A stretch of 64,000 nt of DNA from Clostridiales bacterium (GTDB lineage Bacteria > Bacillota > Clostridia > Oscillospirales > Acutalibacteraceae): the NCBI GenBank assembly GCA_022793315.1, contig JAAWCO010000084.1:3364-67363 (forward strand), read 5' to 3'. The translations under genes were made by a program, and so were the position numbers. Positions within the stretch are counted from its first letter, which is position 1. Each line of letters begins with the position of its first letter. Below are positions 2,458 to 20,043 of the stretch, piece by piece. Below the pieces are notes generated by a model. The model was not told where the DNA came from, did no database searches, and saw only the letters and a program-made list of their open reading frames with translations.

Positions 2458-2458
2458 G

Positions 2459-3388
2459 GTGGGCGCGGGTATCCGCCGCCTGCTGGCAACGGCAGCGATG
2501 CTGTGCCTGACGGCATCGCTCACCGGCTGCCTCTCCCGTCTGCCTGATCCTTCGGCAGAACGCGGCGGCTCCACCGCCGGAGAAGGCAGCACAGCAGCGA
2601 CAGAGGCCTCCCCCACCGAGCTTATCGAGCCGGGGACTGACCCCAAATCCCTCTGTGATCTGGTGAGCCGCGCCGCCAAAAATACGCCCCACGGATGGGA
2701 AATGAATGCACAGACCGATGTGCAGGTATCCATGCGCGGCGATTGGGGCGGTATGGGATATCGATGGCAGGGACCACTCATGACCGACGCGACAGGCAGT
2801 CGCAATCGCTATTATTATGAGCGGAATTATACTTTTTGGTCAGATTCCAACAGCCGTTATCATTATCAGGACAGCTCCTGGCGGTGGACAGAGTATTCCG
2901 ACGGCTTTCAGCGGTATGAGAACAACAACGGGGACAAAATCAGAGAACGGATAGAGTATGCCGACATAGCCCATATTACGCAGGGAATAGCCCCGTTGGC
3001 ATTTTCCTACTGGTGGCTCGTGGAAACCGCGGAGGTGGAAGGCTCCGGAGGCGCCTATCTGGTGAAGATGACCCTTGATCCCGAGACTTCCGCAGGGAGT
3101 TTGCACTATCTTATTGACGAATTGGGAGACCCCGGCGAGCGTATGGAATTTTTGTCCATGAAGCTGGAATTCCTTATCCGGCCGGAGGGTTATCTGAAAA
3201 GCCAGATGATAACCGTGACCGCCCGCGGCCGTCAGACCTTCGGCGCTCCTGAGGACCTGTGCCCTCAGGAGGAGGTGGAATACACCGCGATCTATGCAAC
3301 CACCTATGCGCCAAAGGAGGAGAAGCCGGCGATTGTGCCGCCCTCCGATCTGGAGACCTATCGGGAGGCGGATGACGATACGGTATAA
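2459..3388 (+). CDS. lipoprotein (hypothetical), co-transcribed with 1567..2457
   Basis: GTG start 1 nt after the preceding stop. MGAGIRRLLATAAMLCLTASLTGC is a lipoprotein signal. Coding-like composition throughout. Confidence 0.55.
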   Translation: MGAGIRRLLATAAMLCLTASLTGCLSRLPDPSAERGGSTAGEGSTAATEASPTELIEPGTDPKSLCDLVSRAAKNTPHGWEMNAQTDVQVSMRGDWGGMGYRWQGPLMTDATGSRNRYYYERNYTFWSDSNSRYHYQDSSWRWTEYSDGFQRYENNNGDKIRERIEYADIAHITQGIAPLAFSYWWLVETAEVEGSGGAYLVKMTLDPETSAGSLHYLIDELGDPGERMEFLSMKLEFLIRPEGYLKSQMITVTARGRQTFGAPEDLCPQEEVEYTAIYATTYAPKEEKPAIVPPSDLETYREADDDTV

Positions 3389-4096: not shown

Positions 4097-4220
4097 ACCC
4101 TCCCTGCAGAAAATTTCAGCGCTCAGCTTCTGATTTCCCCTTCGATTATAGCATGAAATTTGAGCCGGCTCAAACCGTTTTCGAGAAACCGCGGGAGCAG
4201 GGCTGGGGAAAGCAATCAGA

Positions 4221-4251
4221 CAGCGGGCCCGGAAAAATTCCGGACCCGCTG
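4221..4251 (-). terminator. hairpin downstream of cassette-1 enzyme gene
   Basis: CAGCGGGCCCGG-AAAAATT-CCGGACCCGCTG with one mismatch. Homologous hairpins occur at 8129 and 12076. The U-tract is weak. Confidence 0.45.
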
Positions 4252-4290
4252 CTTAAAATGAGGGAGGAAAAACCAGAAAGAACCGCGCGG

Positions 4291-6978
4291 TTATTTCCCG
4301 TGCTTTCTGCGGCACCAGACCAGCACCGATGCGGAGACTGCCATCAGAGTACCGGCCGCCAGAGGCAGGCCCGCGCCGGTGGAGGGATTCGTACCGGGCT
4401 TCTGACCGGAAGCGGACGGGGTTGACGGCCCCGCAGTCGTCGGATTCGCTGAGGGATCAGACGAGGGGGAGGTTGACGGACCCGCAGAAGGATCAGCGGA
4501 GGGATCCGTTGACGGGTCGGACGGCGTCTGAGCGGAGGATACCAGAGCAAACTGGCCCAATATAACCGGCGTCAGGGCAGTACCGGCCGCGTAAACGCGC
4601 ATGCCGGTAATCGTGACCTTGCTGTCCTGAATCCACTCTTCTTTCAGATCCAGGTCGGACAGGCGGAGATAACCGCTGTGCCGCTTTCCATCGCCCACGA
4701 TATCGCCGGAGCCGGCATTGTAGCTCACGCCGGGGATATACGAGTTGAGCGTCAGGGCGTCATCGCTGTTCATGGGTGTGTCCCCGTTGCCGAAATAGAC
4801 GATCAGAGAGGTATCTACCCCCTGCTCCACCCGGAAATCGTACCAGATTTGCGCGCTGTCCACCGCTGCTGTCAGGGGGATGTCCAGCTCGTGATCCGCT
4901 TTGGGCCAGAGGCCATCCACATTCTGAAGGGTCAGACAGCCGTTGTCGTCGGGTGCGATGATCATATTGCCCTCCCCCGACCAGTCGTAAGGATTCAGGC
5001 TGAACAGCGGCTGCACCTGAGCGCCTTCTACCGCCGGCAGGTCCGGAGAGGGAACCGTCCCCGGGCTGCTGTCGGCGCCGGCCTCATACACCTCCAGCTC
5101 CGCACAGGAAATGAAGTATTCGCTGCCGCCGGGGACACCGCAGAGCCGGATGCCGGTGCCAGTCTCATTATTCAGCTGGAAATAGAAGGTTTCAAAGGGA
5201 TCGCCGAAATCGGAAAAGCTGTTGGAGACTGGATAGGTGCTGCCGCTGCATTCCACATCCACCCACTGTCCGCCGCGCTGCACCTGAATGCGCAGGCCGT
5301 TGGCAAACCAGCCGCCATTATTAAAGTGTTTGCCTTCCTGGAACACCACCATGCCGAAGGTGTGCTCCTCTTCAAAAGTATAGCCAATCCACTGCTCTTC
5401 GGCGGTGGCGTCCCAGTGATAAGTATCAAACTGATCCTGATCACCGCCGCTGCCTGCATCGGGTTTGATACCATCCGCAATGACCCCGATATCCGGATTG
5501 CCGCCTCCGCCCTGAGGCATGTGGGAGGCGCCTGCCGTTCCCTGTGAGGCGATATTGCGTCCGGAGACCCATTCCCTGGTGCGGGTATAGGTTTCGCCGT
5601 CAACGGAGGTGATCGTACAGGTGACCGTGTACAGGCCGCTGCTCTGATACTGGTGGGAGACGCGCAGTCCCTCCGCGTTCGACCCGTCGCCAAAATCCCA
5701 TGCCACTGACCGGATCATGGATTCATCATAGACACGAAGGTTGAAGGTGACGGTGGAGCCCGACGGTGCCGTCTGAATGGACAGGGGACAGATTTCGGGA
5801 AGCTGCTCCAGCGGGGGAGGAACAATCTCTTCTCCGGCTGGAATGGTCCAGCTGTCGCCGTTAATGGAGCCGCCGTATTTGACAAAGGCTTCCTCTGCCA
5901 GCGCCAGATTCATATCGACAATGTCCTGAAAATCGTATTCAGTATAGCTGAATTTTGTACCGGTGAGTTCCAGACCGCTTTTCCACTTATCCGGGATGGC
6001 CTCATAACCCATCCAGTTGCCCAGAATGGAGGCCGCGGTGGATGGATTGCAGTCACTGTCCTGCCCGCACATCATGGAGATTTTCATACTCTGCTCAAAA
6101 TCACCCTGGCCGTAGAGAAGGCCGATCAGTACATAGGCGGCGTTGAGCTTGGCATCGATGTTGAAGGAGATGCCGGCCCCCTCTATGCAGTGATCCGCTT
6201 CTCCCCAGTTGTCCTCGATAACCTGCCAGGTCTGCTGCCAGGTCATCCCCTGATCATAGCAGCGGTAGACATCCTCAATCGCCTCGCGGAACAGGCTGCC
6301 CTCCGGCACCGACTGGCGTCCCGCCTCCAGGATCTCGTCCAGTGTGTCGGCCGTAAAGGCCCGGGCATGCATGGCCGAAACGTAGACGCCGCCGTAGACA
6401 CCGTCGCCGTAGTTCATGATATGCCCCAGCTCCCACGCCCGGCTGATGGCGGCGTTGGTAAGGCCCGGCAGCATTTGGCCCACAAAATCAGCCTCAATCT
6501 GCCAGTCAATGTCATCGCTGTGGTCGTTATAGAGGTAATGGCCCGACAGGGGGGCGTGAATACCCGCTCGAAGATTGAGACGGGCCGCCAGATTGGCATG
6601 AAACAGAGCAAAGGAGGTGTCGCGGAAATATTCTCCTACTGTTTTCACATCACAGTCCACACCGTGATCGGCCAGCGCCTGCATCAGCGGAATTTCGGCA
6701 TACAGGTCATCCTGCCAGAAGCCTCCATTGACCATGGAGGGGGTCCATTCCGGTATCTCGTCCTCTGTCAGCATACGGCCCTTGGCCTGAAATTCTGTTG
6801 GCGCGGCCCAGGCCACGCCGGCCATCTGGCCGGCCCAGCCGCCCAGAATTTTGTCATATACCTCCTGCCGGCTTAAAACAACCGGGCCAGCTGCCGCCTT
6901 GGCGGGCAGAACGCCCCCAACAGCCCCCGCCAGAAGAGCGGCGCTCAGGAGCCATCCTGCGAAACGCTTGACCTTCAT
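4291..6978 (-). CDS. secreted, wall-anchored multidomain ADP-ribosylglycohydrolase-family protein (cassette 1)
   Basis: 895-aa ORF with an AAGGAGGA RBS and a signal peptide (MKVKRFAGWLLSAALLAGAVGGVLPAKAAA). ARH-family motifs are AAPTEF, WQDDLY and GQDSDCNPST. It also has a PKD-like block (WDFGDGS...SGLYTVTCTI), a discoidin/CBM-like block, an uncharacterised beta-rich module, a DPS-repeat stalk, and NPSTG followed by a hydrophobic helix and RRKHGK. Confidence 0.85.
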   Translation of the reverse strand: MKVKRFAGWLLSAALLAGAVGGVLPAKAAAGPVVLSRQEVYDKILGGWAGQMAGVAWAAPTEFQAKGRMLTEDEIPEWTPSMVNGGFWQDDLYAEIPLMQALADHGVDCDVKTVGEYFRDTSFALFHANLAARLNLRAGIHAPLSGHYLYNDHSDDIDWQIEADFVGQMLPGLTNAAISRAWELGHIMNYGDGVYGGVYVSAMHARAFTADTLDEILEAGRQSVPEGSLFREAIEDVYRCYDQGMTWQQTWQVIEDNWGEADHCIEGAGISFNIDAKLNAAYVLIGLLYGQGDFEQSMKISMMCGQDSDCNPSTAASILGNWMGYEAIPDKWKSGLELTGTKFSYTEYDFQDIVDMNLALAEEAFVKYGGSINGDSWTIPAGEEIVPPPLEQLPEICPLSIQTAPSGSTVTFNLRVYDESMIRSVAWDFGDGSNAEGLRVSHQYQSSGLYTVTCTITSVDGETYTRTREWVSGRNIASQGTAGASHMPQGGGGNPDIGVIADGIKPDAGSGGDQDQFDTYHWDATAEEQWIGYTFEEEHTFGMVVFQEGKHFNNGGWFANGLRIQVQRGGQWVDVECSGSTYPVSNSFSDFGDPFETFYFQLNNETGTGIRLCGVPGGSEYFISCAELEVYEAGADSSPGTVPSPDLPAVEGAQVQPLFSLNPYDWSGEGNMIIAPDDNGCLTLQNVDGLWPKADHELDIPLTAAVDSAQIWYDFRVEQGVDTSLIVYFGNGDTPMNSDDALTLNSYIPGVSYNAGSGDIVGDGKRHSGYLRLSDLDLKEEWIQDSKVTITGMRVYAAGTALTPVILGQFALVSSAQTPSDPSTDPSADPSAGPSTSPSSDPSANPTTAGPSTPSASGQKPGTNPSTGAGLPLAAGTLMAVSASVLVWCRRKHGK
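4375..4389 (-). other. NPSTG sortase-type cell-wall sorting motif (cassette 1)
   Basis: Encodes N-P-S-T-G, followed by 20 hydrophobic residues and a C-terminal RRKHGK tail. Confidence 0.6.
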
Positions 6979-7079
6979 GAAATGATCCTCCTTATTTTTT
7001 GTTTTACCCTGAAAAGTTCTTCTTGCTTTTACTGTTAGGTTATCGTATATTTATAATAAATACAACGCATTAACAGACC

Positions 7080-7094
7080 ATTATTTATGCAAAT
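7080..7094. promoter_or_regulatory. conserved ATTTG-NN-CAAAT box in the divergent promoter (cassette 1)
   Basis: ATTATTTATGCAAAT. The same box is at 11030 and 14274 in equivalent positions. Confidence 0.35.
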
Positions 7095-7146
7095 CCAATC
7101 AGGTTGACGATAAGAGGACGGATTGACACCTGGCAGGAGAAGGAGT

Positions 7147-8064
7147 ATGCAAAATCAATTCATGTCTTCCCTCCGTATGGAGCCCTTTCTATTCCATTTC
7201 ACCCGGGAATGTCCGCTGGATGAAAGCATTCTTCGACAGCGGCCTCTTCCCAATGACCTTCAGTCCCTGCACTATCACGATGCGTTTGAGCTGGGTTATT
7301 GTTACAGCGGCGAGGGGCTTTTTCTCATTGATGGCGAGATTATGCCGTTTCAGGAGGGGGCGGCCGTCATGATCTATCGCGGACAGCTTCACAAAGCACA
7401 AAGCGCCTCTGCCGAAGGAAGCGAGTGGGTGTTTTTATCCGCTGACCTTGCTCTGACGCTGTCCGATATTGACCCCAGCCGGCTGAATGGGCTGCTCGTT
7501 CCGCCGGAAGGCTTTTCTCCCGCCGACTGCCTGCTGACGGAACAGAAGGATCCCGTTATTCCTCTTCTGATCCGCACGGTTATTGAGGAGCTTGACCGCA
7601 AGGAGGAGGGGTATCGCGGCACGGTCCGCGCTCTGCTGTGGGCAGCTCTTTCCCGTCATCATCGTCTGATGCGGGATCACTGTATGGAGGATACCGGAAC
7701 CCCCGATTTGCTGCTGGAGATTGATCCTGCCATTCACTATCTCACCGCCCATTTTACCGAGGAGGTACGTATCGCAGAGCTGGCAGCGCTCTGTCATCTC
7801 AGTGAAGCGACCCTCCGCCGCCGGTTCCGGGAACGGCTGGGTCTGTCGCCTCAGGATTATCTGCATCAGCTGCGCGTTCGAGACGCCGCCATGAGGCTGA
7901 TGACCTCCGACTGTTCGGTGTCAGAGGCGGCCTATCAGGCGGGCTACAATACACTGTCCTGCTTCTTTCGCCAATTCTGCCGGCTGTACGGGATTTCCCC
8001 CACCGCCTGGCGGAAAGAGCGTCGGAAACATTCTTTTCAGGCAGAGGAAGAGGCCGCCTTCTGA
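7147..8064 (+). CDS. AraC family transcriptional regulator with N-terminal cupin sensor (cassette 1)
   Basis: ATG 7147 follows GGAGAAGGAG. Cupin-like LHYHDAFELGYCYSGEGLFLIDGE. C-terminal AraC HTH (LSEATLRRRFRERLGLSPQDYLHQLRVRDAAMRL, YNTLSCFFRQF). Confidence 0.85.
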   Translation: MQNQFMSSLRMEPFLFHFTRECPLDESILRQRPLPNDLQSLHYHDAFELGYCYSGEGLFLIDGEIMPFQEGAAVMIYRGQLHKAQSASAEGSEWVFLSADLALTLSDIDPSRLNGLLVPPEGFSPADCLLTEQKDPVIPLLIRTVIEELDRKEEGYRGTVRALLWAALSRHHRLMRDHCMEDTGTPDLLLEIDPAIHYLTAHFTEEVRIAELAALCHLSEATLRRRFRERLGLSPQDYLHQLRVRDAAMRLMTSDCSVSEAAYQAGYNTLSCFFRQFCRLYGISPTAWRKERRKHSFQAEEEAAF

Positions 8065-8128
8065 AACGAGATGGTTTTTTATGCTTCCCGCCGGCAGAGG
8101 CAGGCGCACGAAAACCGGTTACAGTAAA

Positions 8129-8164
8129 GCAGCAGGTCCGGAAAATTCCGGACCCGCTGCTTTT
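8129..8164. terminator. bidirectional terminator between AraC-1 and the cassette-2 enzyme
   Basis: GCAGCAGGTCCGG-AAAATT-CCGGACCCGCTGC followed by TTTT. Confidence 0.6.
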
Positions 8165-8200
8165 AAAAATGAGGAAGGAAAATGAGAGAGAACGGTACGG

Positions 8201-10933
8201 TTATTTCCCGTGCTTTCTGCGGCACCAGACCAGCGCTGACGCGGAGACCGCCATCAGTGCACCGGCCGCCAGAGGCAGGCCCGCGCCGGTGGAGGGATTC
8301 GTACCAGGCTTCTGGCCGGAAGCGGACGGGGTTGACGGCGCCGTAGCCGTCGGATCTGTTGAGGGATCCGATGAGGGGGTTGACGACGGATCCGCAGACG
8401 GATCAGATGAGGGGGCGGTTGACGGACCAGCAGACGGATCGGTGGAGGGATCCGTTGACGGGTCGGGCAGAGTCGGGTCAGCGGATACCAGAGCAAATTG
8501 CCCCAATATAACCGGCGTCAGCTCTGCCCCCGCGGCATAGGCGCGGAAGCCCGTGATGGCCGCCTTTCCATCGGTGATCCATGCCGGGTCCAATCCCATA
8601 TTGGCCAGATCGAGATAACCGGAATACCGCTTGTCATTGCCCACAATATCACCGGAGCCGGGTTCGATGACAGCGCCGGGAATCAGGGAGTTCAGGCTGA
8701 CGCTCCGCTCGTTGTCCAGGGGATTGCCTTCGTCCCCAAAGAAAACGATCAGACTGGTGTTGACACTGGAGGACACCTTGAAATCATACCAGAGGCGTGT
8801 TTTACCGATTTCCGCCGTCAGGGGTGTGGCCGGCACATAATCCGCTTTAGGCCATTTGCCGTTCATATTTTGCAGAATCAGGCAGCCATTATTATCTGGG
8901 GTGATGACCAGATCCTGCTCCCAGGTCCAGTCGTAGTTGCTCATGCTGAACAGCGGATGGACCTCTCCATTTTCCACCACGGGGAGAGACGGTGAGGGGG
9001 AATCCGGGTCCTGTATCGCGGCGCCCTCCTCATACACCTCCAGCTCCGCACAGGAGATAAAATAGCTGCTGCCGCCGGCGCTGCCATACAGGCGGATGCC
9101 GGTGCCGGTTTCGTTATTGAGATAGAAGCAGAAGGTTTCAAAGGACTCGCCAAAGGCCTCCCGGTCGGAGGCTACCGGATATTTGTCCCCGGTATAGGAC
9201 ACATCGACCCATTGCCCATCGCGCTGTACCTGAATATGCAGGCCGTTTTTGAACCAGCCGCCATCGACAAAGTGCTCGCCCTCCTGGAACACAACCATAC
9301 CAAAGGTATGCTCCTCGTCAAAGGTATAGCCAATCCACTGCTGGAGGTTGGGGTTCGCCATCTGGAAGGTATCAAACTGCTGCATCAGCGTCGCCTCCCC
9401 CTGAATCGGGCGGACGCCATCCGCAATAACACCAATATCCATATTGCCGCCGCCGCCCTCCGGCTGATGGGAGACTACCGGCGTCCCCTGTGAGGCGATA
9501 TTGCGTCCGGATATGCAGGCTTTTTCGCGGGTGAACACTTCGCCCTCATGGGAGGTGATGGTACATTTGACCGTATAATAGCCGCTGGCGCTGTAGCTGT
9601 GGGTCGCACGGATGCCCTCACCGGTGCTGCCGTCGCCGAAATCCCACGCCACCGACTGGATCATGGAATCGTCATAGGCGCGCAGATAGAAGGTGAAGGA
9701 GGAGGCAGATTCCGCTATCTGGATGTCCAGCGGGCAAATTTCAGGCAGCTGCTCCAGCGGAGGAGGAACAACAGCCTCCGCCGCCAGGCTGGCCGGAATG
9801 GCCCAGGTATCGCCGCTGATCGAACCGCCGTATTTGACAAAGGCTTCCTCTGCCAGCGACAGATTATTTTCGACCGCCGTATTAAAATCGTAATCGGTGA
9901 AGGCAAACGGGGACCCGGTCCGCTGCAGCGCGCTCTTCCACTTATCCGGAATCCAGTCATACCCCTTCCAGCTGCCCAGAATAGCACCGACGGTGGAGGG
10001 ATTACAGTCGCTGTCCTGACCGCACATCATGGAGATTTTCATGCTCTCCTCAAAATCTCCCCTGCCGTACAGAAGGCCCATCAGCACATAGGCAGAGTTG
10101 AGTTTGGCGTCAATGTTAAAGGGGATATCCTTTCCGTAAATACAGTGATCTTTGTCCCACCATTTATCATTGACGACCTGCCAGGTCTGCTGCCAGGTCA
10201 TCCCCTTGTCATAGCAGCTGTAGACATCCTCAATGACCTCCCGGAACAGGCTGCCTTCCGGCACCGACTGGCGTCCTGCCTCCAGAATTTCGTCCAATGT
10301 ATCGGCGGTGAAGGCGCGGGACTGCATGGCCGCCACATAAACGCCGCCATAGACCCCGTCGCCGTAGCAGACGATATGCCCCAGCTCCCAGGACTTGTTG
10401 ATGGCGGCGTTGACCAGTCCAGGCAGCATTTGTCCCACAAAATTGGACTCGATCTGCCAGTCGAGATCATCGGTGTGATTGCTGTACAGATAATGACCCG
10501 ACATCGGTGCGCTGATGCCGGCGCGCAGGTTGACACGCGCCGCCAGATTGGCCTCGCACAGCGGGAAAGAGGTGTCGCGGAAATATTCGCCCACCGTTTT
10601 GACATCGCAGTCCACACCATGGTCAAGCAATGCCTGAATAAAAGGGATTTCCACAAACAGATCGTCCTGAGCAAAGCCGGCATTGATTTCGCTGGGCTTC
10701 CAGACAGGAACATCCGACTCCGCCAGCATGCAGTCGTTAAACTGGAATTCGGTGGGCTGGCCCCAGGTCGCACCGGCCATCTGGCCCACCCAGCTGCCTG
10801 CAATTTTATCGTATACCTCCTGACGGCTCAGGGTCACGCCGCCTCCCGCTGCCCGGGCGGGTAGAACACCACCGGCGGCCCCTGCCAGAAGGGCGGCGCT
10901 CAGAAGCCAGCCGGTAAAACGCTTGGCCTTCAT
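8201..10933 (-). CDS. secreted, wall-anchored multidomain ADP-ribosylglycohydrolase-family protein (cassette 2, paralog)
   Basis: 910-aa ORF, colinear with 4291..6978 and identical at most aligned positions by eye. Same motifs (GQPTEF, AQDDLF, GQDSDCNPST, WDFGDGS) and the same stalk and NPSTG anchor. Confidence 0.85.
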   Translation of the reverse strand: MKAKRFTGWLLSAALLAGAAGGVLPARAAGGGVTLSRQEVYDKIAGSWVGQMAGATWGQPTEFQFNDCMLAESDVPVWKPSEINAGFAQDDLFVEIPFIQALLDHGVDCDVKTVGEYFRDTSFPLCEANLAARVNLRAGISAPMSGHYLYSNHTDDLDWQIESNFVGQMLPGLVNAAINKSWELGHIVCYGDGVYGGVYVAAMQSRAFTADTLDEILEAGRQSVPEGSLFREVIEDVYSCYDKGMTWQQTWQVVNDKWWDKDHCIYGKDIPFNIDAKLNSAYVLMGLLYGRGDFEESMKISMMCGQDSDCNPSTVGAILGSWKGYDWIPDKWKSALQRTGSPFAFTDYDFNTAVENNLSLAEEAFVKYGGSISGDTWAIPASLAAEAVVPPPLEQLPEICPLDIQIAESASSFTFYLRAYDDSMIQSVAWDFGDGSTGEGIRATHSYSASGYYTVKCTITSHEGEVFTREKACISGRNIASQGTPVVSHQPEGGGGNMDIGVIADGVRPIQGEATLMQQFDTFQMANPNLQQWIGYTFDEEHTFGMVVFQEGEHFVDGGWFKNGLHIQVQRDGQWVDVSYTGDKYPVASDREAFGESFETFCFYLNNETGTGIRLYGSAGGSSYFISCAELEVYEEGAAIQDPDSPSPSLPVVENGEVHPLFSMSNYDWTWEQDLVITPDNNGCLILQNMNGKWPKADYVPATPLTAEIGKTRLWYDFKVSSSVNTSLIVFFGDEGNPLDNERSVSLNSLIPGAVIEPGSGDIVGNDKRYSGYLDLANMGLDPAWITDGKAAITGFRAYAAGAELTPVILGQFALVSADPTLPDPSTDPSTDPSAGPSTAPSSDPSADPSSTPSSDPSTDPTATAPSTPSASGQKPGTNPSTGAGLPLAAGALMAVSASALVWCRRKHGK
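8285..8299 (-). other. NPSTG sorting motif (cassette 2)
   Basis: N-P-S-T-G, then AGLPLAAGALMAVSASALVW, then CRRKHGK. Confidence 0.6.
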
Positions 10934-11029
10934 GAAATTTCCTCCTTTTTCTCTTTTGAATAAAAAATCCTCTTGCTTTTACGGTTAGATTATCGTATAT
11001 TTACTACAAATACAATCTCTGCATTAGAT

Positions 11030-11044
11030 ATTATTTGTGCAAAT
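11030..11044. promoter_or_regulatory. conserved ATTTG-NN-CAAAT box (cassette 2)
   Basis: ATTATTTGTGCAAAT. A second GTGCAAAA direct repeat lies at 11087-11094. Confidence 0.35.
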
Positions 11045-11097
11045 ACAATCAGCATTTTTCATCGAACATCATCTTCGTGCAAAAGAGGTAAGATATC

Positions 11098-12015
11098 ATG
11101 CAAAATCGCTCAATTTCCTCCTCCCGTGTGGAGCCCTATCTGCTGCACTTTACCCGGGAATCCCCCATGGATGAAAATATTATTCGTCAGACGCCCCTGC
11201 CGGAGGAGTGCCCTTCGCTGCATTATCACAATGTGTTTGAGCTGGGCTACTGCTACAGCGGGACAGGACAGTTTCTGATTGACGGCGAGATGGTGCCCTT
11301 TCAGGAGGGAACGGCGGTGATGATCTACCGCGGACAGCTCCACCGGGCGCAGAGCACGCCCAACGAATGGAGCGAATGGGTATTTTTATATGCGGACCTT
11401 CCACTGGTACTCTCCGATGTCGACCCCAGTCGGCTGAATGGCCTGCTTGCCCCGCCGGAGGGCTTTTCTCCGGCAGATTGCCTGCTGACGGAGCAGAAGG
11501 ACCCCCTTCTGCCCGGCCTGATCCGCGCCATCATTGAGGAAATCGACTGCAAGGATGAGGGATATCGCAGCTCGGTTTGCGGCCTTCTATGGACGGCTCT
11601 TTCCCGCCACCACCGCCTGATGCAGCAGCATCGCACAGAGACGATGGGAACCCCTGACTCGCTGCTGGAGATTGACGCCGCCGTCTATTATCTTTCTCAC
11701 CATTTTACAGAAGAGGTACATATTTCCCAGCTGGCGGAGCTTTGTCATCTCAGTGAAGCGACCCTCCGCCGCCGGTTTCGGGAGCGGCTGGGACTGTCGC
11801 CTCAGGATTATTTGCACCAGCTGCGTGTTCATGACGCGGCCATGCGGCTGATGACCACCGACTGTTCCGTATCGGAGGCAGCCTATAAGGCAGGATATAA
11901 CACCCTATCCTGTTTCTTTCGCCAGTTTGACAGGCTGTATGGGATGTCGCCCACTGTCTGGCGGAAGGAGCACCGCGAAGGCTCTTTCCCAGCGGGGGGA
12001 AAAGATGCTTCCTGA
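11098..12015 (+). CDS. AraC family transcriptional regulator with cupin sensor (cassette 2, paralog)
   Basis: 305-aa ORF, colinear with 7147..8064. The HTH region is almost identical (LSEATLRRRFRERLGLSPQDYLHQLRVHDAAMRL). Confidence 0.85.
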   Translation: MQNRSISSSRVEPYLLHFTRESPMDENIIRQTPLPEECPSLHYHNVFELGYCYSGTGQFLIDGEMVPFQEGTAVMIYRGQLHRAQSTPNEWSEWVFLYADLPLVLSDVDPSRLNGLLAPPEGFSPADCLLTEQKDPLLPGLIRAIIEEIDCKDEGYRSSVCGLLWTALSRHHRLMQQHRTETMGTPDSLLEIDAAVYYLSHHFTEEVHISQLAELCHLSEATLRRRFRERLGLSPQDYLHQLRVHDAAMRLMTTDCSVSEAAYKAGYNTLSCFFRQFDRLYGMSPTVWRKEHREGSFPAGGKDAS

Positions 12016-12075
12016 ACTGTGGGTGACCTTTTCGGCAGGCGCCCGCCAATCTCTGGCGGATGGCGCGCACGGTCA

Positions 12076-12115
12076 AACGGCGGGCCCGGGAAAATATTCC
12101 TGGGCCCGCCGTTTT
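12076..12115. terminator. bidirectional terminator between AraC-2 and the cassette-3 enzyme
   Basis: AACGGCGGGCCCGGG-AAAATATT-CCTGGGCCCGCCGTT followed by TTTAAAAA. Confidence 0.6.
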
Positions 12116-12148
12116 AAAAAGGAGGAAAATCAGGGAATATATCGGCGG

Positions 12149-14173
12149 TTACTGCCCGCGCTTTTTTCGGCACCAGCCCAGAGCCGCCGCGGAGACCGCC
12201 AGCAGTGTCCCAGCCGCCAGGGGGAGACCCACGCCGGTGGAGGGGCTTGTACCGGGCTTCTGGCCAGAGGCGGACGGAGTGGTCGAAGGGGCAGTCGATG
12301 GGTCCGCCGACGGGCCGGCAGAAGGATCAGACGAGGGATCTGCTGATGGATCAGTGGAGGGATCTGTTGACGGATCAGATGACGGGCTGGTGGAGGGATT
12401 AGTGGATGGGTTGTCTGAAGGAGCTGAGGACGGAGCGGTGGAGGGCTCCGGAGCCTGATCCATTTGTCCTACAGAAAGATCGTTCCATGTCAGTGTCGCT
12501 GTCGGAGACCCGTAATCTGACAAGAGGATTTGTGTCACGGTGATGGTCCCGGAGGTTCCCAGCACCGTCGGCAGATGGATGTATTTATCAACAGGGCTTT
12601 CGATATTGATATCGGTGATCCCCTTGCCATACATCATTTCAGCAAAGGTTTTGCGCTGCTCCTGCCCCGCCCCGTCGATATAGTCGAAAAAGCCATTGGC
12701 GGCTCCGGTATCCGGCGTGACGCGGAAATGAATATAGGGGGTTGCCGACAGATCAATGGTCTGGTTCAGAGAATAGGATACGGCAAACCAGCCGGAGCTT
12801 TTCTGGCACAGCGTCAGACTGCCATCCTGGTTGATGGTGGAAACAATCCCGTCACCGGTCAGACTGTCGATGCTTTGCGGCAGCAGAGAGCTCGCTTTTT
12901 GATAGCTGGGCTTTTCCGGAACCGGCTGGTCAGTGGTCACGCTGAACTCGCGCAGCACTGTCGGCCGGCTGTTGGCGCCTATGAAATGCAATTTGACGCC
13001 GGAGAATAAAACATTGCCGTTTTCATCCGCAAAGCTCTCCGGGACGCCCAGATCGGTGAGAAGGAAGGATCCTTTAATTGTCTGCCCGGCCTGAAGATTG
13101 CCGGTGGCATCCAATTTCAGATCGGGATAAAGGCCGCTGAGAGCAAGCGGAAGAGATATATAGGTGGTATCATAATTGTGTGTGGGAGTAACACCGTTAA
13201 AATACAAAAGGATGTTGGTAACCGTTCCGTCAATGGTGAGATCAAGATTCAGTTCGGTGCCCTCCAGCGGAACACAGACCCCTTTATCCACCGGGGGCGA
13301 ATAGTGGTACTCCGCCCCCCAGACGCTGGTATTGGAAATGCGCAGAGACTGATTCAGCTTTTGCACCTTTATTGTGCCGATCAGCGGTTCAGTCCAGTCG
13401 GCCGGGTCCAGAGAGATCAGGCTTTGGGTACCTTTTACAGGTACTGTAGGAATCTGGGGATACTCAACGCGGGGGGCATTGGCATCCTGACGGAAACGCT
13501 CCTGCATATAGGCGACAAGCGTTTCCGCATACCTTTCCTGGCCGTAGGGGGAGAGATGGACGCCGTCGATTTGAAGGAAATCATAAATGTCGTGCTGATT
13601 GCACATCTCCCGCATATCCACCAGATCCACATCCTGCTCAGCGGCGATTTCCCGGATGACACGGTTGTAGACATCAATGCTGTCGGTAAGGGTGTCTTCC
13701 CCATCGGGATAGGTGCCGACATTTTTCATCCAGGCGTCGTCCCGCACATACGGAGCGGTGAACAGGAGGGGAGTCGCGCCCAGCTTCTGAACCCGGCTGA
13801 CCAGCGTGCTCATGTTCTGGCGATAGTTATCAGGAGTAACCACCGGATCGGTGCCCCAGCGGACAAAGTCGTTTGTACCAAAGGCGATTACCACATAGTC
13901 CGGCTTCGCCGCCGCTACATCCCTGTCAAAGCGGGCCAGACCGTCCGCTGAGGTATGGCCGCCGATACCGGCATTCACCAATTTCATGTTAAGCTCTTTT
14001 GACGCCATCTCCGCCCAGTTGCTTTGGGCGGTAAGACTGTCGCCCAGGGTGACAAGGGTTTTCCCATCCAATATGGGGGCATCCGGCGCCGGGGCCGCCG
14101 CTGCGGATACGGCGCCCGCCGCCAGGGCAGCGCTTAAGACCAGAGAAAAAAACCTCTTTCCTATCCTGCTCAT
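12149..14173 (-). CDS. secreted, wall-anchored SGNH/GDSL hydrolase with two beta-rich accessory modules (cassette 3)
   Basis: 674-aa ORF with a signal peptide (MSRIGKRFFSLVLSAALAAGAVSAAAA). SGNH blocks are GDSLT, GIGGHT, FGTNDF and DGVHLSPYG. It has a DPS-repeat stalk and SPSTG followed by a hydrophobic helix and CRKKRGQ. Confidence 0.8.
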   Translation of the reverse strand: MSRIGKRFFSLVLSAALAAGAVSAAAAPAPDAPILDGKTLVTLGDSLTAQSNWAEMASKELNMKLVNAGIGGHTSADGLARFDRDVAAAKPDYVVIAFGTNDFVRWGTDPVVTPDNYRQNMSTLVSRVQKLGATPLLFTAPYVRDDAWMKNVGTYPDGEDTLTDSIDVYNRVIREIAAEQDVDLVDMREMCNQHDIYDFLQIDGVHLSPYGQERYAETLVAYMQERFRQDANAPRVEYPQIPTVPVKGTQSLISLDPADWTEPLIGTIKVQKLNQSLRISNTSVWGAEYHYSPPVDKGVCVPLEGTELNLDLTIDGTVTNILLYFNGVTPTHNYDTTYISLPLALSGLYPDLKLDATGNLQAGQTIKGSFLLTDLGVPESFADENGNVLFSGVKLHFIGANSRPTVLREFSVTTDQPVPEKPSYQKASSLLPQSIDSLTGDGIVSTINQDGSLTLCQKSSGWFAVSYSLNQTIDLSATPYIHFRVTPDTGAANGFFDYIDGAGQEQRKTFAEMMYGKGITDINIESPVDKYIHLPTVLGTSGTITVTQILLSDYGSPTATLTWNDLSVGQMDQAPEPSTAPSSAPSDNPSTNPSTSPSSDPSTDPSTDPSADPSSDPSAGPSADPSTAPSTTPSASGQKPGTSPSTGVGLPLAAGTLLAVSAAALGWCRKKRGQ
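12233..12247 (-). other. SPSTG sorting motif (cassette 3)
   Basis: S-P-S-T-G, then VGLPLAAGTLLAVSAAALGW, then CRKKRGQ. Confidence 0.6.
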
Positions 14174-14273
14174 GGAAGGTCCTCCTTCTTACATTTACCT
14201 CAAAATTGTGTTCTGCCTGATTTTATTACCAGCTTATCGCACATTCGCAATAAAGACAATTCCCTTATTTAAT

Positions 14274-14288
14274 ATTATTTGTGCGAAT
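14274..14288. promoter_or_regulatory. conserved ATTTG-NN-CAAAT box (cassette 3)
   Basis: ATTATTTGTGCGAAT, followed by CATCATTTCGTGCAAAAA at 14312-14329, which matches CATCATCTTCGTGCAAAAG in cassette 2. Confidence 0.35.
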
Positions 14289-14342
14289 CTGATCAACTTT
14301 TTGAGGAGAAGCATCATTTCGTGCAAAAACAGATGAAATCTT

Positions 14343-14357
14343 ACGCAGAATCGCTCA
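14343..14357 (+). pseudogene. stub of a third AraC regulator gene (start codon ATG to ACG, body missing)
   Basis: ACGCAGAATCGCTCA aligns with ATGCAAAATCGCTCA, the first codons of AraC-2 at 11098. Similarity stops after this point. Confidence 0.5.
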
Positions 14358-15000
14358 GGCAGTACGGCCATAAAAGCATAACGACGGTTTCCCATAAGGG
14401 AGCCTATTCTCCGGAGGTGTCAAACAGACAGCTAATGGATGACAACCGTCTCAAATCCTTCGCGCCAATAGAGATGATACGTAAATTTCAGCCACATTCG
14501 GGCCGCCTTTTTTATCCCGAAGCCATCCGGAATAATCGCAAAGTCCCGGATGGGTGTGCAGAGCTCCTGCATAAGAAAAGGGGACTTTTTCACAGGGGGC
14601 TTCTGTCCTTTTGCGGATTTCAGGGCAGCCCTCTCCGGCATGGGAAAGCGCGAAAATCGTATACCATTTGCTGTTTTTCAGATGGCTTATCAACGTATGT
14701 ATCCTGTATTTACAAAACACGATGTGCGAACAGGAGCAAAGCAGAACCGTTTTCCATGAAACGCGCGCCTGCAGGCCCTGTTTGTCCAGGTGCAAACAGG
14801 AGCAGCAGAAAGGAAACGTTTAATCCGACCCCGACCAGAATACCAGGAATATGTCCTGCGCCTGAGCGAGCTGATACCCCGGCAGCAGGGACAGCGCTGC
14901 CAGCCTCTGTTTTTACCCCGAAAAATCAGGTCTTTCCCTGTCAACAGACGGTTTTGTTACAGAAAAGAAAATTTTTTATGAACAAATCCTGGCAAAATCA
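14358..15000. other. about 0.65 kb lower-GC segment with no convincing ORF (degenerate or non-coding)
   Basis: All six frames are broken. The listed ORFs (14279..15127, 14451..14795 and others) have Cys/Arg-rich, non-protein-like composition. Confidence 0.4.
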
Positions 15001-15105
15001 TTGCTTTTTGGGGCCTGTCCGACTATACTTATTCCATTATTTCAGCTCGGGGAGCGAACCGCACGCCCTCCAAAGCTGCGAACGAAATGCAAAAGGAGGA
15101 GAAAC

Positions 15106-16497
15106 ATGGAAAAACTGTTCAAGCTGAAGGCGCATGGAACCACCGTGAGAACCGAAATCATGGCGGGTATCACCACCTTTCTGACCATGGCGTACATTCT
15201 GGCCGTCAATCCCGGCATGCTTTCCGGCGCTTCCCTGGGCTTCAGCACCGGTATGAACGCGGGCGCCGTCTTTACCGCTACGGCGCTGGCGGCGGCCATC
15301 GGCTGCCTGCTCATGGCCTTTCTGTCCAACTATCCGGTGGCGCTGGCCTCCGGCATGGGGCTCAACGCCTATTTCGCCGTGGTATGCATGAATCTGATGG
15401 GCGAAGGGGTGGAGAATCCCTGGAAGGTCGCGCTGACCGCCGTTCTGGTAGAGGGCGTCATCTTCATCCTGCTGTCCATCTTCAAATTCCGGGAAACGCT
15501 GGTCAACACCGTGCCGCAGAACCTGAAGCTCGGGATTACGGCTGGTATCGGCCTGTTTATTGCCATCATCGGTCTGAAGGGCGCCGGCATTGCGGTCGCC
15601 AGTCCCTCCACGCTGGTGGACCTGGGCGACGTGTCCTCCCCCGGCTTTGTGCTGGCCTTTGTGGGCCTGATCGCGATTGGCGTCCTCTCCCATTTCAAGG
15701 TACGCGGCGCGATTCTGTGGGGGATTCTGGGCACCTGGCTCCTCGGCATTGTGGCCGAACTCGGCGGATGGTATCAGGTGGACCCCGCCGCCGGCATGTA
15801 TTCTCTGATCCCGGACTTTTCCGCCGGCGTGAAAAGCCTGATTCCTGCGGCGCCTCATGTTCTTCAGTTTGACTTCGGCTATGTGGCATCCAACCTCACC
15901 AATTTTATTGTTGTCGTGTTTTCCTTCCTGTTTGTGGACCTGTTTGATACGGTGGGCACCCTGATCGGCGTCGCCAGTAAGGGCAATCTGCTCGATGAGG
16001 AGGGCAAGCTGCCGAAGGTCGGCCGCGCACTGATGGCCGATGCCATCGGCACCGTGGCGGGCGCCTGTCTGGGCACCTCCACCGTCACCAGCTATGTGGA
16101 GAGCACCGCCGGCGTGGCGGAGGGCGGCCGCACCGGTCTGACCGCCGTCACCACTGCCGCGCTGTTTATTCTGGCTCTCTTCTTCGGCCCTGTCTTTACG
16201 GCGATTCCCGGTTTTGCCACGGCGCCCGCACTGGTTTATGTCGGCCTGCTGATGATGTCGGCTGTGCTGAAAATGAAGTTTGAGGGCGATATGGCCGATG
16301 TGCTGGGCGGCTTTATGGCGATTATCATGATGCCGTTCACCTATTCCATCGCCAATGGCATCATGTTCGGCATCCTGACCTGGTTCATCATCAAGCTGAT
16401 CACCGGCAAGATCCGCGAAATTCATCCGGTAATGTATGTGGTGGCCGCACTTTTCATCCTCCGTCTCGTCACACTGGTCATACCGGCCTTTTCCTGA
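15106..16497 (+). CDS. NCS2/AzgA-type purine (adenine/guanine/hypoxanthine) permease
   Basis: ATG 15106 follows AAAGGAGGAG. MEKLFKLKAHGTTVRTEIMAGITTFLTMAYILAVNPGML is a typical N-terminus for this family. Multi-TM throughout. Confidence 0.85.
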   Translation: MEKLFKLKAHGTTVRTEIMAGITTFLTMAYILAVNPGMLSGASLGFSTGMNAGAVFTATALAAAIGCLLMAFLSNYPVALASGMGLNAYFAVVCMNLMGEGVENPWKVALTAVLVEGVIFILLSIFKFRETLVNTVPQNLKLGITAGIGLFIAIIGLKGAGIAVASPSTLVDLGDVSSPGFVLAFVGLIAIGVLSHFKVRGAILWGILGTWLLGIVAELGGWYQVDPAAGMYSLIPDFSAGVKSLIPAAPHVLQFDFGYVASNLTNFIVVVFSFLFVDLFDTVGTLIGVASKGNLLDEEGKLPKVGRALMADAIGTVAGACLGTSTVTSYVESTAGVAEGGRTGLTAVTTAALFILALFFGPVFTAIPGFATAPALVYVGLLMMSAVLKMKFEGDMADVLGGFMAIIMMPFTYSIANGIMFGILTWFIIKLITGKIREIHPVMYVVAALFILRLVTLVIPAFS

Positions 16498-16639: not shown

Positions 16640-17182
16640 CTATTCCTCCATCTGCCGGCCCAGAAAAGCGGCGGCGACCTGAATCAGCTTGACATCGCCC
16701 TCACCGGGTACCGCCCCGCTCTCGGGCAGAATCAGACAGACCGTACCAATCACATCGCCGGAGGCCAAAATCGGCACCGCTACCGAGGCATAGCGTTCAA
16801 TCCCCTCCACCGGCTGCAGGCGTTTCTGATCCCCCGCCTTGGCGATATGAGTCCGACGCTGCTCCATCAGCTCCTCCATCTGTCCGCTGATACGGCGCTC
16901 GAGAAATTCCTTTTTGGAGACCCCGGCTGCTGCCACGACATGATCCCGGTCACAGATGAGCACGGGCAGTCCGCAGGCGCGGGACATAACGTCGGCATAC
17001 TGCAGCGCGAAGGGGGACATCTCCCCCACCGGAGAGTATTTTTTGAAGACCACTTCCCCATCGTTATCGGTGAAAATTTCCAGAGGGTCGCCCTCCCGTA
17101 TTCTCATGGTACGCCGGATTTCTTTCGGTATGACAACACGACCAAGGTCGTCGATTCTCCGAACAATTCCTGTTGCTTTCAT
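16640..17182 (-). CDS. spoVT: stage V sporulation protein T (AbrB-type N-terminal domain plus GAF-like C-terminal domain)
   Basis: MKATGIVRRIDDLGRVVIPKEIRRTMRIREGDPLEIF is the SpoVT/AbrB swapped-hairpin motif. The 180-aa length fits SpoVT. Confidence 0.85.
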   Translation of the reverse strand: MKATGIVRRIDDLGRVVIPKEIRRTMRIREGDPLEIFTDNDGEVVFKKYSPVGEMSPFALQYADVMSRACGLPVLICDRDHVVAAAGVSKKEFLERRISGQMEELMEQRRTHIAKAGDQKRLQPVEGIERYASVAVPILASGDVIGTVCLILPESGAVPGEGDVKLIQVAAAFLGRQMEE

Positions 17183-20024: not shown

Positions 20025-20043
20025 CGGAAGGCTGGTAAAACAT

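What the first reader, a model, noticed from the sequence alone, without database searches (positions are those of the whole stretch)
4215..14357. Tandem array of three 'wall-anchored exo-enzyme + AraC sensor' cassettes
Seen directly: modules 4215-8128 and 8129-12075 are colinear paralogs. Each has a hairpin terminator, a ~900-aa minus-strand secreted enzyme, a ~150-nt divergent promoter region and a ~310-aa plus-strand AraC/cupin regulator. The enzyme 3' ends (4291-4400 vs 8201-8310) and promoter-proximal stretches (TCTTGCTTTTAC.GTTAG.TTATCGTATATTTA at 7021 and 10971) are nearly identical at nucleotide level. The catalytic parts are more diverged. This points to duplication followed by divergence and/or gene conversion of the ends. 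Module 3 (12076-14357) keeps the terminator, stalk/anchor and promoter motifs, but its catalytic head is an SGNH/GDSL hydrolase and its regulator is reduced to a stub. Inference: a modular, diversifying locus of small-molecule-induced surface enzymes acting on an unknown extracellular substrate. I know of no characterised system of wall-anchored ARH-fold enzymes under dedicated AraC control.
Basis: partly seen in the sequence, partly recalled or inferred. Interest (0 to 1): 0.75.

Follow-up and report, generated by a model that had tools for sequence, protein, structure and literature searches.

The report
Duplicated surface-enzyme and AraC regulator cassettes
A gut Clostridia chromosome carries a tandem duplication of a gene pair (a secreted, probably wall-anchored enzyme with an ADP-ribosylhydrolase-type fold plus its own AraC-type regulator), followed by an esterase that shares the same anchor and promoter; the gene arrangement is ordinary, but the enzyme family is widespread and has never been characterised.

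Summary
Modules 4221-8020 and 8130-11971 are colinear paralogs (73.7% nt; enzymes 68% aa, regulators 76% aa). All three units share a GC-rich hairpin, a Pro/Ser stalk with an NPSTG/hydrophobic/basic tail, and promoter motifs found nowhere else in the 64 kb.

Synonymous divergence is about 0.9 overall but 0.19 in the last 55 codons, so the anchor end was homogenised by gene conversion.

E1 and E2 are signal peptide + ARH fold + PKD + CBM32-like + a rare beta-sandwich. E3 is an SGNH esterase with two CBM22-like sandwiches.

Refinements:
- The ARH+PKD+CBM32-like core is very widespread (at least 592 species genomes carry the catalytic subfamily), and some members carry a dockerin instead of the anchor.
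- The dedicated AraC is confined to a small subclade.
- The three-unit array was found only here.
- Module 3 is better read as part of a conserved R2-E3-promoter unit, present on its own in a related MAG.

Best reading: sugar-induced, sortase-anchored glycan- or ribosyl-directed hydrolases. The substrate is unknown. It is a new variant of a known kind, of moderate interest.

The parts
4218..4253 (.). GC-rich hairpin T1, a bidirectional terminator candidate downstream of E1
   Evidence: Folds at -25.2 kcal/mol on the plus strand and -30.6 on the minus strand, z -4.4 and -4.9. Conserved in all three modules.
4291..6978 (-). E1, 895 aa. Domains: Sec signal peptide; ARH-fold catalytic domain (about residues 33-367); PKD (399-472); CBM32-like (480-632); rare beta-sandwich (650-815); Pro/Ser stalk; NPSTG + hydrophobic segment + RRKHGK tail.
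   Evidence: Pfam; translation; AF2 model with pLDDT 81; Foldseek hits to DraG/ARH3 with TM 0.69-0.76 and to CBM32 with TM 0.77.
6979..7146 (.). Divergent promoter region P1. Contains TTGCTT-17-TATATT reading toward R1 (7023-7051) and box ATTATTTATGCAAAT at 7080-7094.
   Evidence: Alignments. Each motif occurs only three times in the 64 kb, once per promoter region.
7147..8064 (+). R1, an AraC/XylS regulator with an N-terminal cupin (RhaS-like), 305 aa counted from the ATG at 7147
   Evidence: Pfam HTH_18, HTH_AraC, AraC_binding and Cupin_2. NCBIfam RhaS model matched over its whole length but below cut-off. 76% identical to R2.
8126..8163 (.). Hairpin T2 between the convergent genes R1 and E2
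   Evidence: Folds at -28.6 and -33.1 kcal/mol, z -6.8 and -9.5.
8201..10933 (-). E2, 910 aa, a paralog of E1 with the same architecture. The stalk is 36 nt longer through 12-nt repeats.
   Evidence: 68% aa identity to E1; Pfam; tandem repeats at 8352-8461.
10934..11097 (.). Divergent promoter region P2, with two GTGCAAA boxes 40 bp apart (11034-11044 and 11074-11084)
   Evidence: The same boxes occur only in orthologous promoters among the 92 fetched loci.
11098..12015 (+). R2, an AraC/cupin regulator of 305 aa. It is divergent from E2 and convergent with E3.
   Evidence: Pfam. A 94% identical ortholog lies next to the E3 ortholog in GCA_022800315.1.
12075..12114 (.). Hairpin T3 between the convergent genes R2 and E3
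   Evidence: Folds at -37.0 and -34.4 kcal/mol, z -5.9 and -5.8.
12149..14173 (-). E3, 674 aa. Domains: signal peptide; SGNH/GDSL esterase (40-220); two CBM22-like beta-sandwiches (about 245-415 and 425-572); Pro/Ser stalk; SPSTG-type tail.
   Evidence: Pfam; AF2 model; Foldseek hits to Axe2, acylhydrolases and tandem CBM22. The SGNH catalytic blocks are invariant in the family alignment.
14174..14358 (.). Promoter region P3. It has the same motifs (14234-14245, 14274-14288, 14318-14328) and a 16-nt relic of a regulator 5' end (14343-14358, ATG changed to ACG).
   Evidence: The breakpoint is the same in L083.

Best explanation
An ancient tandem duplication produced two copies of a divergently transcribed pair. 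Each pair encodes a Sec-secreted, sortase-type anchored hydrolase with an ARH-fold catalytic head followed by PKD, CBM32-like and a rare beta-sandwich module, together with a RhaS-like AraC/cupin regulator.

The duplicated pairs abut a pre-existing unit in which regulator R2 sits convergent to a similarly anchored SGNH esterase, E3. The E3 promoter is a copy of the cassette promoter.

Shown directly:
- The paralogy.
- Purifying selection on all copies.
- Homogenisation of the anchor-encoding 3' ends.
- The domain architectures.
- Promoter motifs that occur only in these three regions and in orthologous cassettes.

Inferred:
- The enzymes are displayed on the cell wall through an (S/N)PxTG signal.
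- Their non-catalytic modules bind a glycan.
- The ARH-fold head removes a ribosyl-like or other furanosyl unit from an extracellular glycoconjugate, while E3 removes acyl groups from the same material.
- A released sugar enters the cell and binds the cupin domains of R1 and R2, which then act at the GTGCAAA boxes to activate P1, P2 and, in trans, P3.
- The two diverged enzyme-regulator pairs have probably split specificity. The highest dN is in the CBM32-like and C-terminal modules.
For: Duplication and selection: (dS 0.88, dN/dS 0.25 for the enzymes and 0.14 for the regulators; dS 0.19 in the last 55 codons; dN peaks at 0.37-0.45 in the binding modules).

Secretion and anchoring: the N-terminal signal sequences and the NPSTG tail are visible in the translations. 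An (S/N/T)PxTG + hydrophobic + basic tail is conserved in E1 and E3 homologs while the linkers vary. In other homologs it is replaced by a dockerin.

Active enzyme: the Pfam ARH match covers the whole profile. The fold matches DraG and ARH3. The acidic motifs QDD(89-91) and GQDSD(305-309), plus E62, align with WTDD, GGDxD and the Glu of solved ARHs, and they are invariant in the family.

Glycan targeting: the model shows a CBM32-like fold and the same catalytic + Ig + CBM32 layout as the Micromonospora sialidase. E3 has tandem CBM22-like folds and an Axe2-like esterase head. The rare C-terminal module co-occurs with SGNH, dockerin, cohesin, CE2_N and NAGPA.

Ribose-type link: 17 of about 71 surveyed loci carrying this catalytic subfamily have a directly adjacent PfkB kinase, RbsB/RbsC-like ABC component, RbsU/GlcU-like permease or LacI regulator. 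Two Oscillospiraceae loci have a PfkB-AraC-HTH fusion upstream of the enzyme. ADP-ribosylglycohydrolases are also listed among the enzymes of Bacteroidetes ribose-utilisation loci (10.1101/574913).

Regulation: a divergent AraC ortholog accompanies the closest enzyme homologs (L001, L082, L088, L091, and more distantly L022 and L011). The R2-E3 pairing is conserved in L083-L086, and a non-orthologous AraC is convergent to a 47% identical E3 homolog in L089. The motifs are restricted to the three promoters and to orthologous cassettes.
Against: - No substrate is known for any member of this subfamily.
- Two of the Thr metal ligands of ARH3-type enzymes are replaced (Gln89, Cys310), so the chemistry could differ.
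- The F5/8-C match is below Pfam's threshold.
- No sortase, transporter or catabolic gene lies in the cassette or in the window.
- Most Clostridia homologs have no AraC neighbour and no conserved neighbourhood.
- The ribose-type association holds for a minority of loci and was not tested against a background.
- P1 lacks the second GTGCAAA box.
- The regulator tree does not mirror the enzyme tree (NJ tree, no support values).
Confidence: 0.55

Rival explanations
1. E1 and E2 are genuine ADP-ribosyl hydrolases that work outside the cell. They would remove ADP-ribose from ADP-ribosylated proteins on bacterial or host surfaces, or break down extracellular NAD-derived ADP-ribose conjugates for scavenging. 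The beta-sandwich modules would then serve only for positioning.
For: The Pfam ARH match covers the full profile at 109-119 bits. The fold is closest to DraG and ARH3. Five of the seven positions that align with ARH metal ligands are kept. Ribose-uptake and kinase neighbours would also fit scavenging of ADP-ribose. A nucleobase permease lies 0.9 kb downstream of module 3.
Against: Identity to characterised ARHs is only 13-20%, and the subfamily has its own invariant signature (QDD, GQDSDCNPS). The CBM32-like and CBM22-like modules, the dockerin variants and the partnership with a carbohydrate-esterase-like SGNH enzyme are typical of glycan-active enzymes. The subfamily is abundant in soil Acidobacteriota and Planctomycetota, where a protein-ADP-ribose substrate is not obvious.
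Confidence: 0.2
2. The array has no joint function. It is a neutral by-product of duplication and rearrangement. Each regulator controls only its own divergent enzyme, E3 is regulated independently, and the shared tail and promoter pieces reflect recombination between paralogous ends rather than co-regulation.
For: The three-unit array was found only in this genome. Relatives carry single modules or the R2-E3 unit in unrelated contexts. The duplication is old (dS about 0.9). No transporter or catabolic genes tie the units together.
Against: P3 keeps the same motifs as P1 and P2 at 71% identity, although flanking non-coding DNA is unrelated. In L083 the R2 ortholog has no local target other than E3. 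An SGNH + AraC neighbourhood recurs with a non-orthologous AraC. E1, E2 and E3 share a rare module found in only 61 cluster representatives out of 1.8 billion.
Confidence: 0.15
3. E1 and E2 are non-catalytic surface adhesins or lectins in which the ARH fold is a pseudo-enzyme scaffold, as in crystallin J1.
For: Two canonical Thr metal ligands are substituted, and several binding-type modules are present.
Against: The acidic metal-binding motifs and about 60 further catalytic-domain positions are invariant across 29 sequences that share 37-75% identity. The catalytic domain has the lowest dN of the protein (0.07-0.24).
Confidence: 0.05

Closest known systems
ARH3 / DraG / ARH1 (ADP-ribosyl-acceptor hydrolases, Pfam PF03747)
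   Same: All-helical ARH fold (Foldseek TM 0.69-0.76). The Glu and the two Asp-rich motifs are aligned and conserved.
   Different: Identity is 13-20%. The Thr ligands are replaced by Gln and Cys. The protein is secreted and fused to PKD, CBM32-like and beta-sandwich modules plus an anchor. The known ARHs are intracellular, single-domain enzymes acting on ADP-ribosylated proteins.
Micromonospora viridifaciens sialidase, large form (catalytic domain + Ig-like linker + galactose-binding CBM32), and Clostridium perfringens CBM32-bearing glycosidases
   Same: The same accessory layout, an Ig/PKD linker followed by a CBM32-like module behind a secreted exo-acting catalytic domain.
   Different: The catalytic fold is ARH rather than a beta-propeller or TIM barrel. 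Sugar binding by the module is untested.
Bacteroidetes ribose-utilisation systems (rus loci) that include ADP-ribosylglycohydrolases (10.1101/574913)
   Same: An ARH-family enzyme is linked with ribokinase-family kinases, sugar transporters and a dedicated regulator. Similar neighbours are seen for this subfamily in 17 loci.
   Different: This cassette has no SusC/D, kinase or transporter. The regulator is AraC-type rather than RusR or LacI. The host is Gram-positive and the enzyme is wall-anchored.
RhaS/RhaR/AraC sugar-responsive activators with divergent target genes
   Same: Cupin + double-HTH architecture, full-length similarity to RhaS, and divergent promoters with repeated boxes.
   Different: The match is below the NCBIfam equivalog cut-offs. 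The only apparent targets are single extracellular enzyme genes rather than a catabolic operon.
Clostridioides difficile SrtB-type sorting signals, (S/P)PxTG (established knowledge, not retrieved here)
   Same: An (S/N/T)PxTG motif, then about 20 hydrophobic residues, then a basic tail. The pattern is conserved across homologs.
   Different: No sortase is present in the window and cleavage is untested.
Axe2-type SGNH acetyl-xylo-oligosaccharide esterases and cellulosomal carbohydrate esterases
   Same: The E3 head matches Axe2 and other SGNH esterases (TM 0.66-0.80), it has tandem CBM22-like modules, and some homologs carry a dockerin.
   Different: Identity is 22-26%. E3 is wall-anchored and its substrate is unknown.

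Membership tests
ADP-ribosylglycohydrolase family (PF03747) | Profile match above the curated threshold over the whole domain | tested here: met
   119.2 and 109.4 bits against a cut-off of 26.2, covering profile positions 1-286 of 287.
ADP-ribosylglycohydrolase family (PF03747) | All-alpha ARH fold | tested here: met
   AF2 pLDDT is mostly above 90 for residues 33-367. Foldseek TM normalised to the target is 0.69-0.76 for DraG, ARH3 and Thermus ARH.
ADP-ribosylglycohydrolase family (PF03747) | Binuclear metal site: a Glu, a T-D-D motif and a D-x-D-T motif | tested here: inconclusive
   E62, D90, D91, D307 and D309 align and are invariant. The two Thr positions are Gln89 and Cys310. The mapping rests on sequence alignment only.
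ADP-ribosylglycohydrolase family (PF03747) | Hydrolysis of an ADP-ribosyl linkage | not testable with these tools
   Needs an enzyme assay.
AraC/XylS regulators (RhaS-like) | C-terminal double helix-turn-helix | tested here: met
   HTH_18 at 78-83 bits and HTH_AraC at 54 bits.
AraC/XylS regulators (RhaS-like) | N-terminal cupin ligand-binding domain | tested here: met
   AraC_binding at 34-36 bits (cut-off 21.1) and Cupin_2 at 28-29 bits (cut-off 27.2).
AraC/XylS regulators (RhaS-like) | Equivalog-level match to RhaS or any other named regulator | tested here: not met
   The best match is RhaS at 72 bits against a cut-off of 288. TIGR04094 (YSIRK-adjacent AraC) scores 57 bits against 200.
Sortase-anchored surface protein | N-terminal signal peptide plus a C-terminal xPxTG motif, hydrophobic stretch and basic tail | tested here: met
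   Seen in the translations. The motif is conserved in homologs.
Sortase-anchored surface protein | A cognate sortase encoded in the genome | not testable with these tools
   No TLxTC-type sortase ORF is present in the 64-kb window. The rest of the genome is not available.
SGNH/GDSL hydrolase (E3) | Profile match and the four catalytic blocks (GDS, G, GxND, DxxH) | tested here: met
   Lipase_GDSL_2 at 90.9 bits against 32.9. S46, G71, N101, D203 and H206 are invariant in 19 homologs.
CBM32 / F5-8 type C | Profile match above threshold | tested here: not met
   20.2 bits against 28.2 for E1, and no hit for E2.
CBM32 / F5-8 type C | Beta-sandwich fold superposable on CBM32 | tested here: met
   CpGH89 CBM32-5 (4a41) gives TM 0.77 normalised to the target and rmsd 3.3 A. 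There are also sialidase CBM32 hits.
Gram-positive polysaccharide utilisation locus | A regulator, degradative enzymes and a transporter encoded together | tested here: not met
   There is no sugar transporter or catabolic gene between 1 and 17 kb. The only transporter nearby is an NCS2 nucleobase permease.
Anti-phage defence system | Match to a PADLOC model | tested here: not met
   No hits for E1, E2, E3, R1 or R2.

The most novel reading that the evidence does not exclude
The ARH-fold subfamily defined by the invariant QDD and GQDSDCNPS motifs may be an unrecognised family of extracellular glycoside hydrolases. It would act on a ribofuranosyl or other furanosyl decoration of polysaccharides or glycoconjugates rather than on ADP-ribosylated proteins. 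It is deployed with CBMs, sortase anchors or dockerins in Clostridia, and as a periplasmic or secreted enzyme next to ribose-type uptake genes in Acidobacteriota, Planctomycetota and Bacteroidota. This locus would then show two diverged specificities plus a companion esterase, each wired to a product-sensing AraC regulator.
Probability: 0.35. Interest if true: 0.75.

Novelty: new variant of a known kind. Interest (0 to 1): 0.5.

Why it matters
The gene organisation is ordinary: a divergent AraC regulator next to a secreted enzyme, then tandem duplication, divergence and gene conversion.

The value lies in the enzyme. This is a large, phylogenetically broad subfamily of secreted ARH-fold proteins, found in at least 592 species-level genomes. 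No member has a solved close structure, a curated family name or a known substrate. Its accessory modules and neighbours suggest carbohydrate chemistry that current CAZyme catalogues would miss.

This locus gives a compact entry point for experiments. It offers two diverged paralogs, a companion esterase, dedicated regulators whose ligand should report the product, and a short, well-defined operator region.

Tried and rejected
- Literature: eight full-text searches combined ADP-ribosylglycohydrolase with secreted, CBM32, dockerin, PUL, CAZyme, Clostridia and secretome terms. No characterised secreted ARH + CBM enzyme turned up. The only relevant item was the Bacteroidetes rus preprint.
- Curated families: NCBIfam has no model for E1 or E2, and PADLOC gives no hits.
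- PDB by sequence: the catalytic domain gets only marginal ARH hits.
- Mobile-element idea: there is no plasmid match and no transposase. The window is core chromosome, with SpoVT, YpeB, PBP1 and CTP synthase.
- Riboswitch or other RNA in or next to the array: nothing at the Rfam gathering threshold in the whole window. In 14300-15200 there was only a sub-threshold chance hit.
- A hidden third regulator or a decayed gene in 14358-15105: no AraC remnant, no remnant of the membrane protein that flanks E3 in L083, and the 282-aa ORF at 14279-15127 has no Pfam hit and a junk-like translation.
- Exact look-up of E1 in the assembly index found nothing.
- A metagenome scan with E2 alone found nothing. 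The scan with the clade alignment gave only two single-module loci.
- Co-phylogeny of enzymes and regulators: the NJ trees disagree, so I make no co-duplication claim beyond the window.

Full report
**1. What is in the sequence**

The region holds five genes in alternating orientation:
- E1: 4291-6978, minus strand, 895 aa
- R1: 7147-8064, plus strand
- E2: 8201-10933, minus strand, 910 aa
- R2: 11098-12015, plus strand
- E3: 12149-14173, minus strand, 674 aa

blastn aligns 4221-8020 with 8130-11971 colinearly at 73.7% identity. E1 and E2 are 68% identical and R1 and R2 are 76% identical.

Each convergent junction carries a strong GC-rich hairpin: 4218-4253, 8126-8163 and 12075-12114. They fold at -25 to -37 kcal/mol with z-scores of -4.4 to -9.5, and they fold equally well on both strands.

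Module 3 shares only two pieces with the other modules. One is the hairpin plus 3' tail (about 310-350 nt at 72-74%). The other is 128 nt of promoter (71%), which ends 16 nt into a regulator 5' end whose ATG has become ACG. No other AraC remnant exists.

**2. Age and mode of the duplication**

A codon-wise Nei-Gojobori calculation gives dS 0.88 and dN/dS 0.25 for E1/E2, and dS 1.04 and dN/dS 0.14 for R1/R2. This is an old duplication, and both copies of both genes are under purifying selection.

The last 55 codons (stalk end, sorting signal and membrane segment) have dS 0.19. Nucleotide identity there is 93 of 100. A drop at synonymous sites means recent sequence exchange rather than just protein constraint, so gene conversion of the anchor end is supported.

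dN is highest in the CBM32-like and C-terminal modules (0.37-0.45) and lowest in the catalytic domain (0.07-0.24).

The Pro/Ser stalks are encoded by 12-nt repeats, and these account for the length differences between the proteins.

**3. The proteins**

E1 and E2:
- The Pfam ARH match covers the whole profile. PKD is also matched, and E1 has a sub-threshold F5/8-C match.
- The AF2 model of E1 (pLDDT 81) resolves five parts: an all-helical domain (33-367), a PKD domain (399-472), a beta-sandwich (480-632), a second beta-sandwich (650-815) and a disordered stalk ending in a helix.
- Foldseek places the head with DraG, ARH3 and a Thermus ARH (TM 0.69-0.76, 13-20% identity). It places the middle with CBM32 modules (TM 0.77) and with the Ig + CBM32 part of the Micromonospora sialidase.
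- Sequence alignment to solved ARHs maps E62, QDD(89-91) and GQDSDC(305-310) onto the conserved Glu, the WTDD motif and the GGDxDT motif. The acidic residues are kept, and the two Thr positions are Gln and Cys.
- All of these positions are invariant in 29 homologs. The head therefore looks catalytically competent, but it is a distinct subfamily.

E3:
- It is an SGNH esterase with all catalytic blocks invariant.
- Structurally it is closest to Axe2-type acetyl esterases and is followed by two CBM22-like sandwiches.
- Its first sandwich is homologous to the E1/E2 C-terminal module (25% identity, E 5e-10).

Features shared by all three enzymes:
- A Sec-type signal sequence at the N-terminus.
- A C-terminal (S/N)PSTG motif followed by about 20 hydrophobic residues and a basic tail.
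- The (S/N/T)PxTG pattern is conserved in E1 and E3 homologs although the linkers vary. In other homologs it is replaced by a dockerin.

R1 and R2 are cupin + double-HTH AraC proteins. They are most similar over their full length to RhaS, but below every equivalog cut-off.

**4. Relatives elsewhere**

- E1 itself is on record as a protein of a Clostridiales MAG.
- The catalytic signature (GDGVYGGV[FY], GQDSDCNP) was found in at least 592 GTDB species genomes.
- In Clostridia the ARH + PKD + CBM32-like core is conserved at 40-55% identity. In Acidobacteriota, Planctomycetota, Bacteroidota and other phyla only the catalytic domain is matched, at 43-49%.
- The closest relative is Candidatus Avimonas narfia (L001, 72% over the full length). 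It has a single enzyme with a divergent AraC that is 76% identical to R1, in unrelated flanks.
- The same divergent pairing occurs in L082, L088 and L091, and more distantly in L022 and L011.
- About 20 other Clostridia loci have no AraC and no conserved neighbourhood. Their commonest neighbour is another ARH paralog.
- The dedicated AraC is therefore a subclade trait. The two-module array plus E3 was seen only in this window.

**5. Module 3 re-read**

The E3 ortholog (85% aa) in GCA_022800315.1 lies next to an R2 ortholog (94% aa) in the same convergent arrangement. No ARH enzyme is present there.

Nucleotide homology between that locus and the window runs from window position 14358 to 11027 at 84%. 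This covers the stub, P3, E3, R2 and the regulator-proximal 70 nt of P2. The flanks differ completely.

The truncation that left the stub is therefore older than the split of the two genomes, and R2 + E3 + P3 behaves as a unit. A 47% identical E3 homolog in another genome also has a convergent AraC, though a non-orthologous one.

P3 keeps the cassette motifs. TTATCG(Y)A(Y)ATT and ATTATTTRTGCRAAT each occur exactly three times in the 64 kb, once per promoter. The TTnGTGCAAAw box occurs only in orthologous promoters among the 92 fetched loci.

I infer that R2, and possibly R1, controls E3 in trans.

**6. Promoter anatomy (inference from alignment)**

Across P1-P3 and the orthologs, a TTGACT/TTGCTT-17-TATATT element reads toward the regulator. 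A possible opposing TTGTAT-17-TAAyCT element reads toward the enzyme. Two GTGCAAA boxes 40 bp apart lie between these elements and the regulator start. P1 has lost the second box. None of this has been tested experimentally.

**7. What the enzymes may do**

No member of the subfamily is characterised. NCBIfam has no model for it, there is no close PDB entry, and eight literature searches found nothing.

Three indirect lines bear on function:
- The accessory modules and dockerin variants are those of glycan-active extracellular enzymes.
- The rare C-terminal module has only 61 cluster representatives among 1.8 billion. It travels with SGNH esterases, dockerin and cohesin, Metallophos, NAGPA phosphodiester glycosidase and CE2_N.
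- Seventeen of about 71 surveyed loci have an immediately adjacent PfkB kinase, RbsB/RbsC-like ABC component, RbsU/GlcU-like permease or LacI regulator. Two Oscillospiraceae loci have a PfkB-AraC-HTH fusion upstream of the enzyme.

ADP-ribosylglycohydrolases are also listed among the variable enzymes of Bacteroidetes ribose-utilisation loci (10.1101/574913).

Together these favour an exo-acting hydrolase that releases ribose or a similar sugar from an extracellular glycoconjugate, with E3 removing acyl groups. Confidence is low to moderate. The main rival is a true extracellular ADP-ribosyl hydrolase.

**8. Verdict**

The organisation is a familiar one. The catalytic family is an uncharacterised, widespread variant of the ARH fold in a carbohydrate-enzyme-like setting. 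I classify it as a new variant of a known kind, with interest 0.5.

Noticed in passing
window 14358-15105: About 750 nt with no credible ORF and no Rfam match lie between the module-3 stub and an NCS2/AzgA-type nucleobase permease (15106-16497, plus strand). GC content is lower here (about 49-52%) than in the surroundings (about 58%). It may be decayed DNA left by the rearrangement that truncated the third regulator copy.
   Followed up: partly
L009:6427-7710 and L025:4165-5409: In two Oscillospiraceae MAGs a single ORF fuses a PfkB sugar-kinase domain (residues 11-293) to an AraC HTH_18 domain (339-417). It lies directly upstream of two ARH paralogs. This could be a kinase-fold sensor regulator for the same enzyme family.
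   Followed up: partly
L037, L047, L073, L076 and nine other loci: Thirteen of 82 loci carry two or three ARH-family paralogs within 10 kb. Often an E1-like copy (45-55% identity) sits beside a distant one (25-30% identity). Clustering of paralogs is a general trait of this family.
   Followed up: partly
L001:3081-3624: In Candidatus Avimonas narfia the enzyme-regulator intergenic region has an insertion of about 380 nt between the conserved promoter motifs and the regulator start.
   Followed up: no
L091:535-2431: The P0004 locus has two AraC genes in tandem upstream of the ARH enzyme. One is orthologous to R1/R2 (56-58% identity). The other is related only in the HTH domain.
   Followed up: no
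window 16640-20718: A run of sporulation and spore-coat-type genes: SpoVT (16640-17182, minus strand), then a CotH kinase (17482-19272), a VTC-domain protein (19248-20024) and a DUF4956 protein (20044-20718) on the plus strand. These are adjacent genes and I did not examine them further.
   Followed up: no
L088:8140-10691: The enzyme homolog in this metagenome contig matches in several reading frames. It is either a frameshifted pseudogene or an assembly error. It lies next to an intact divergent AraC (54-57% identical to R1/R2).
   Followed up: no
window 1567-3388: Upstream of the array lie a DUF6612/SCO4651-type lipoprotein gene (1567-2457) and a 309-aa ORF (2459-3388) with no family match. 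Neither gene has a counterpart at the related loci.
   Followed up: no
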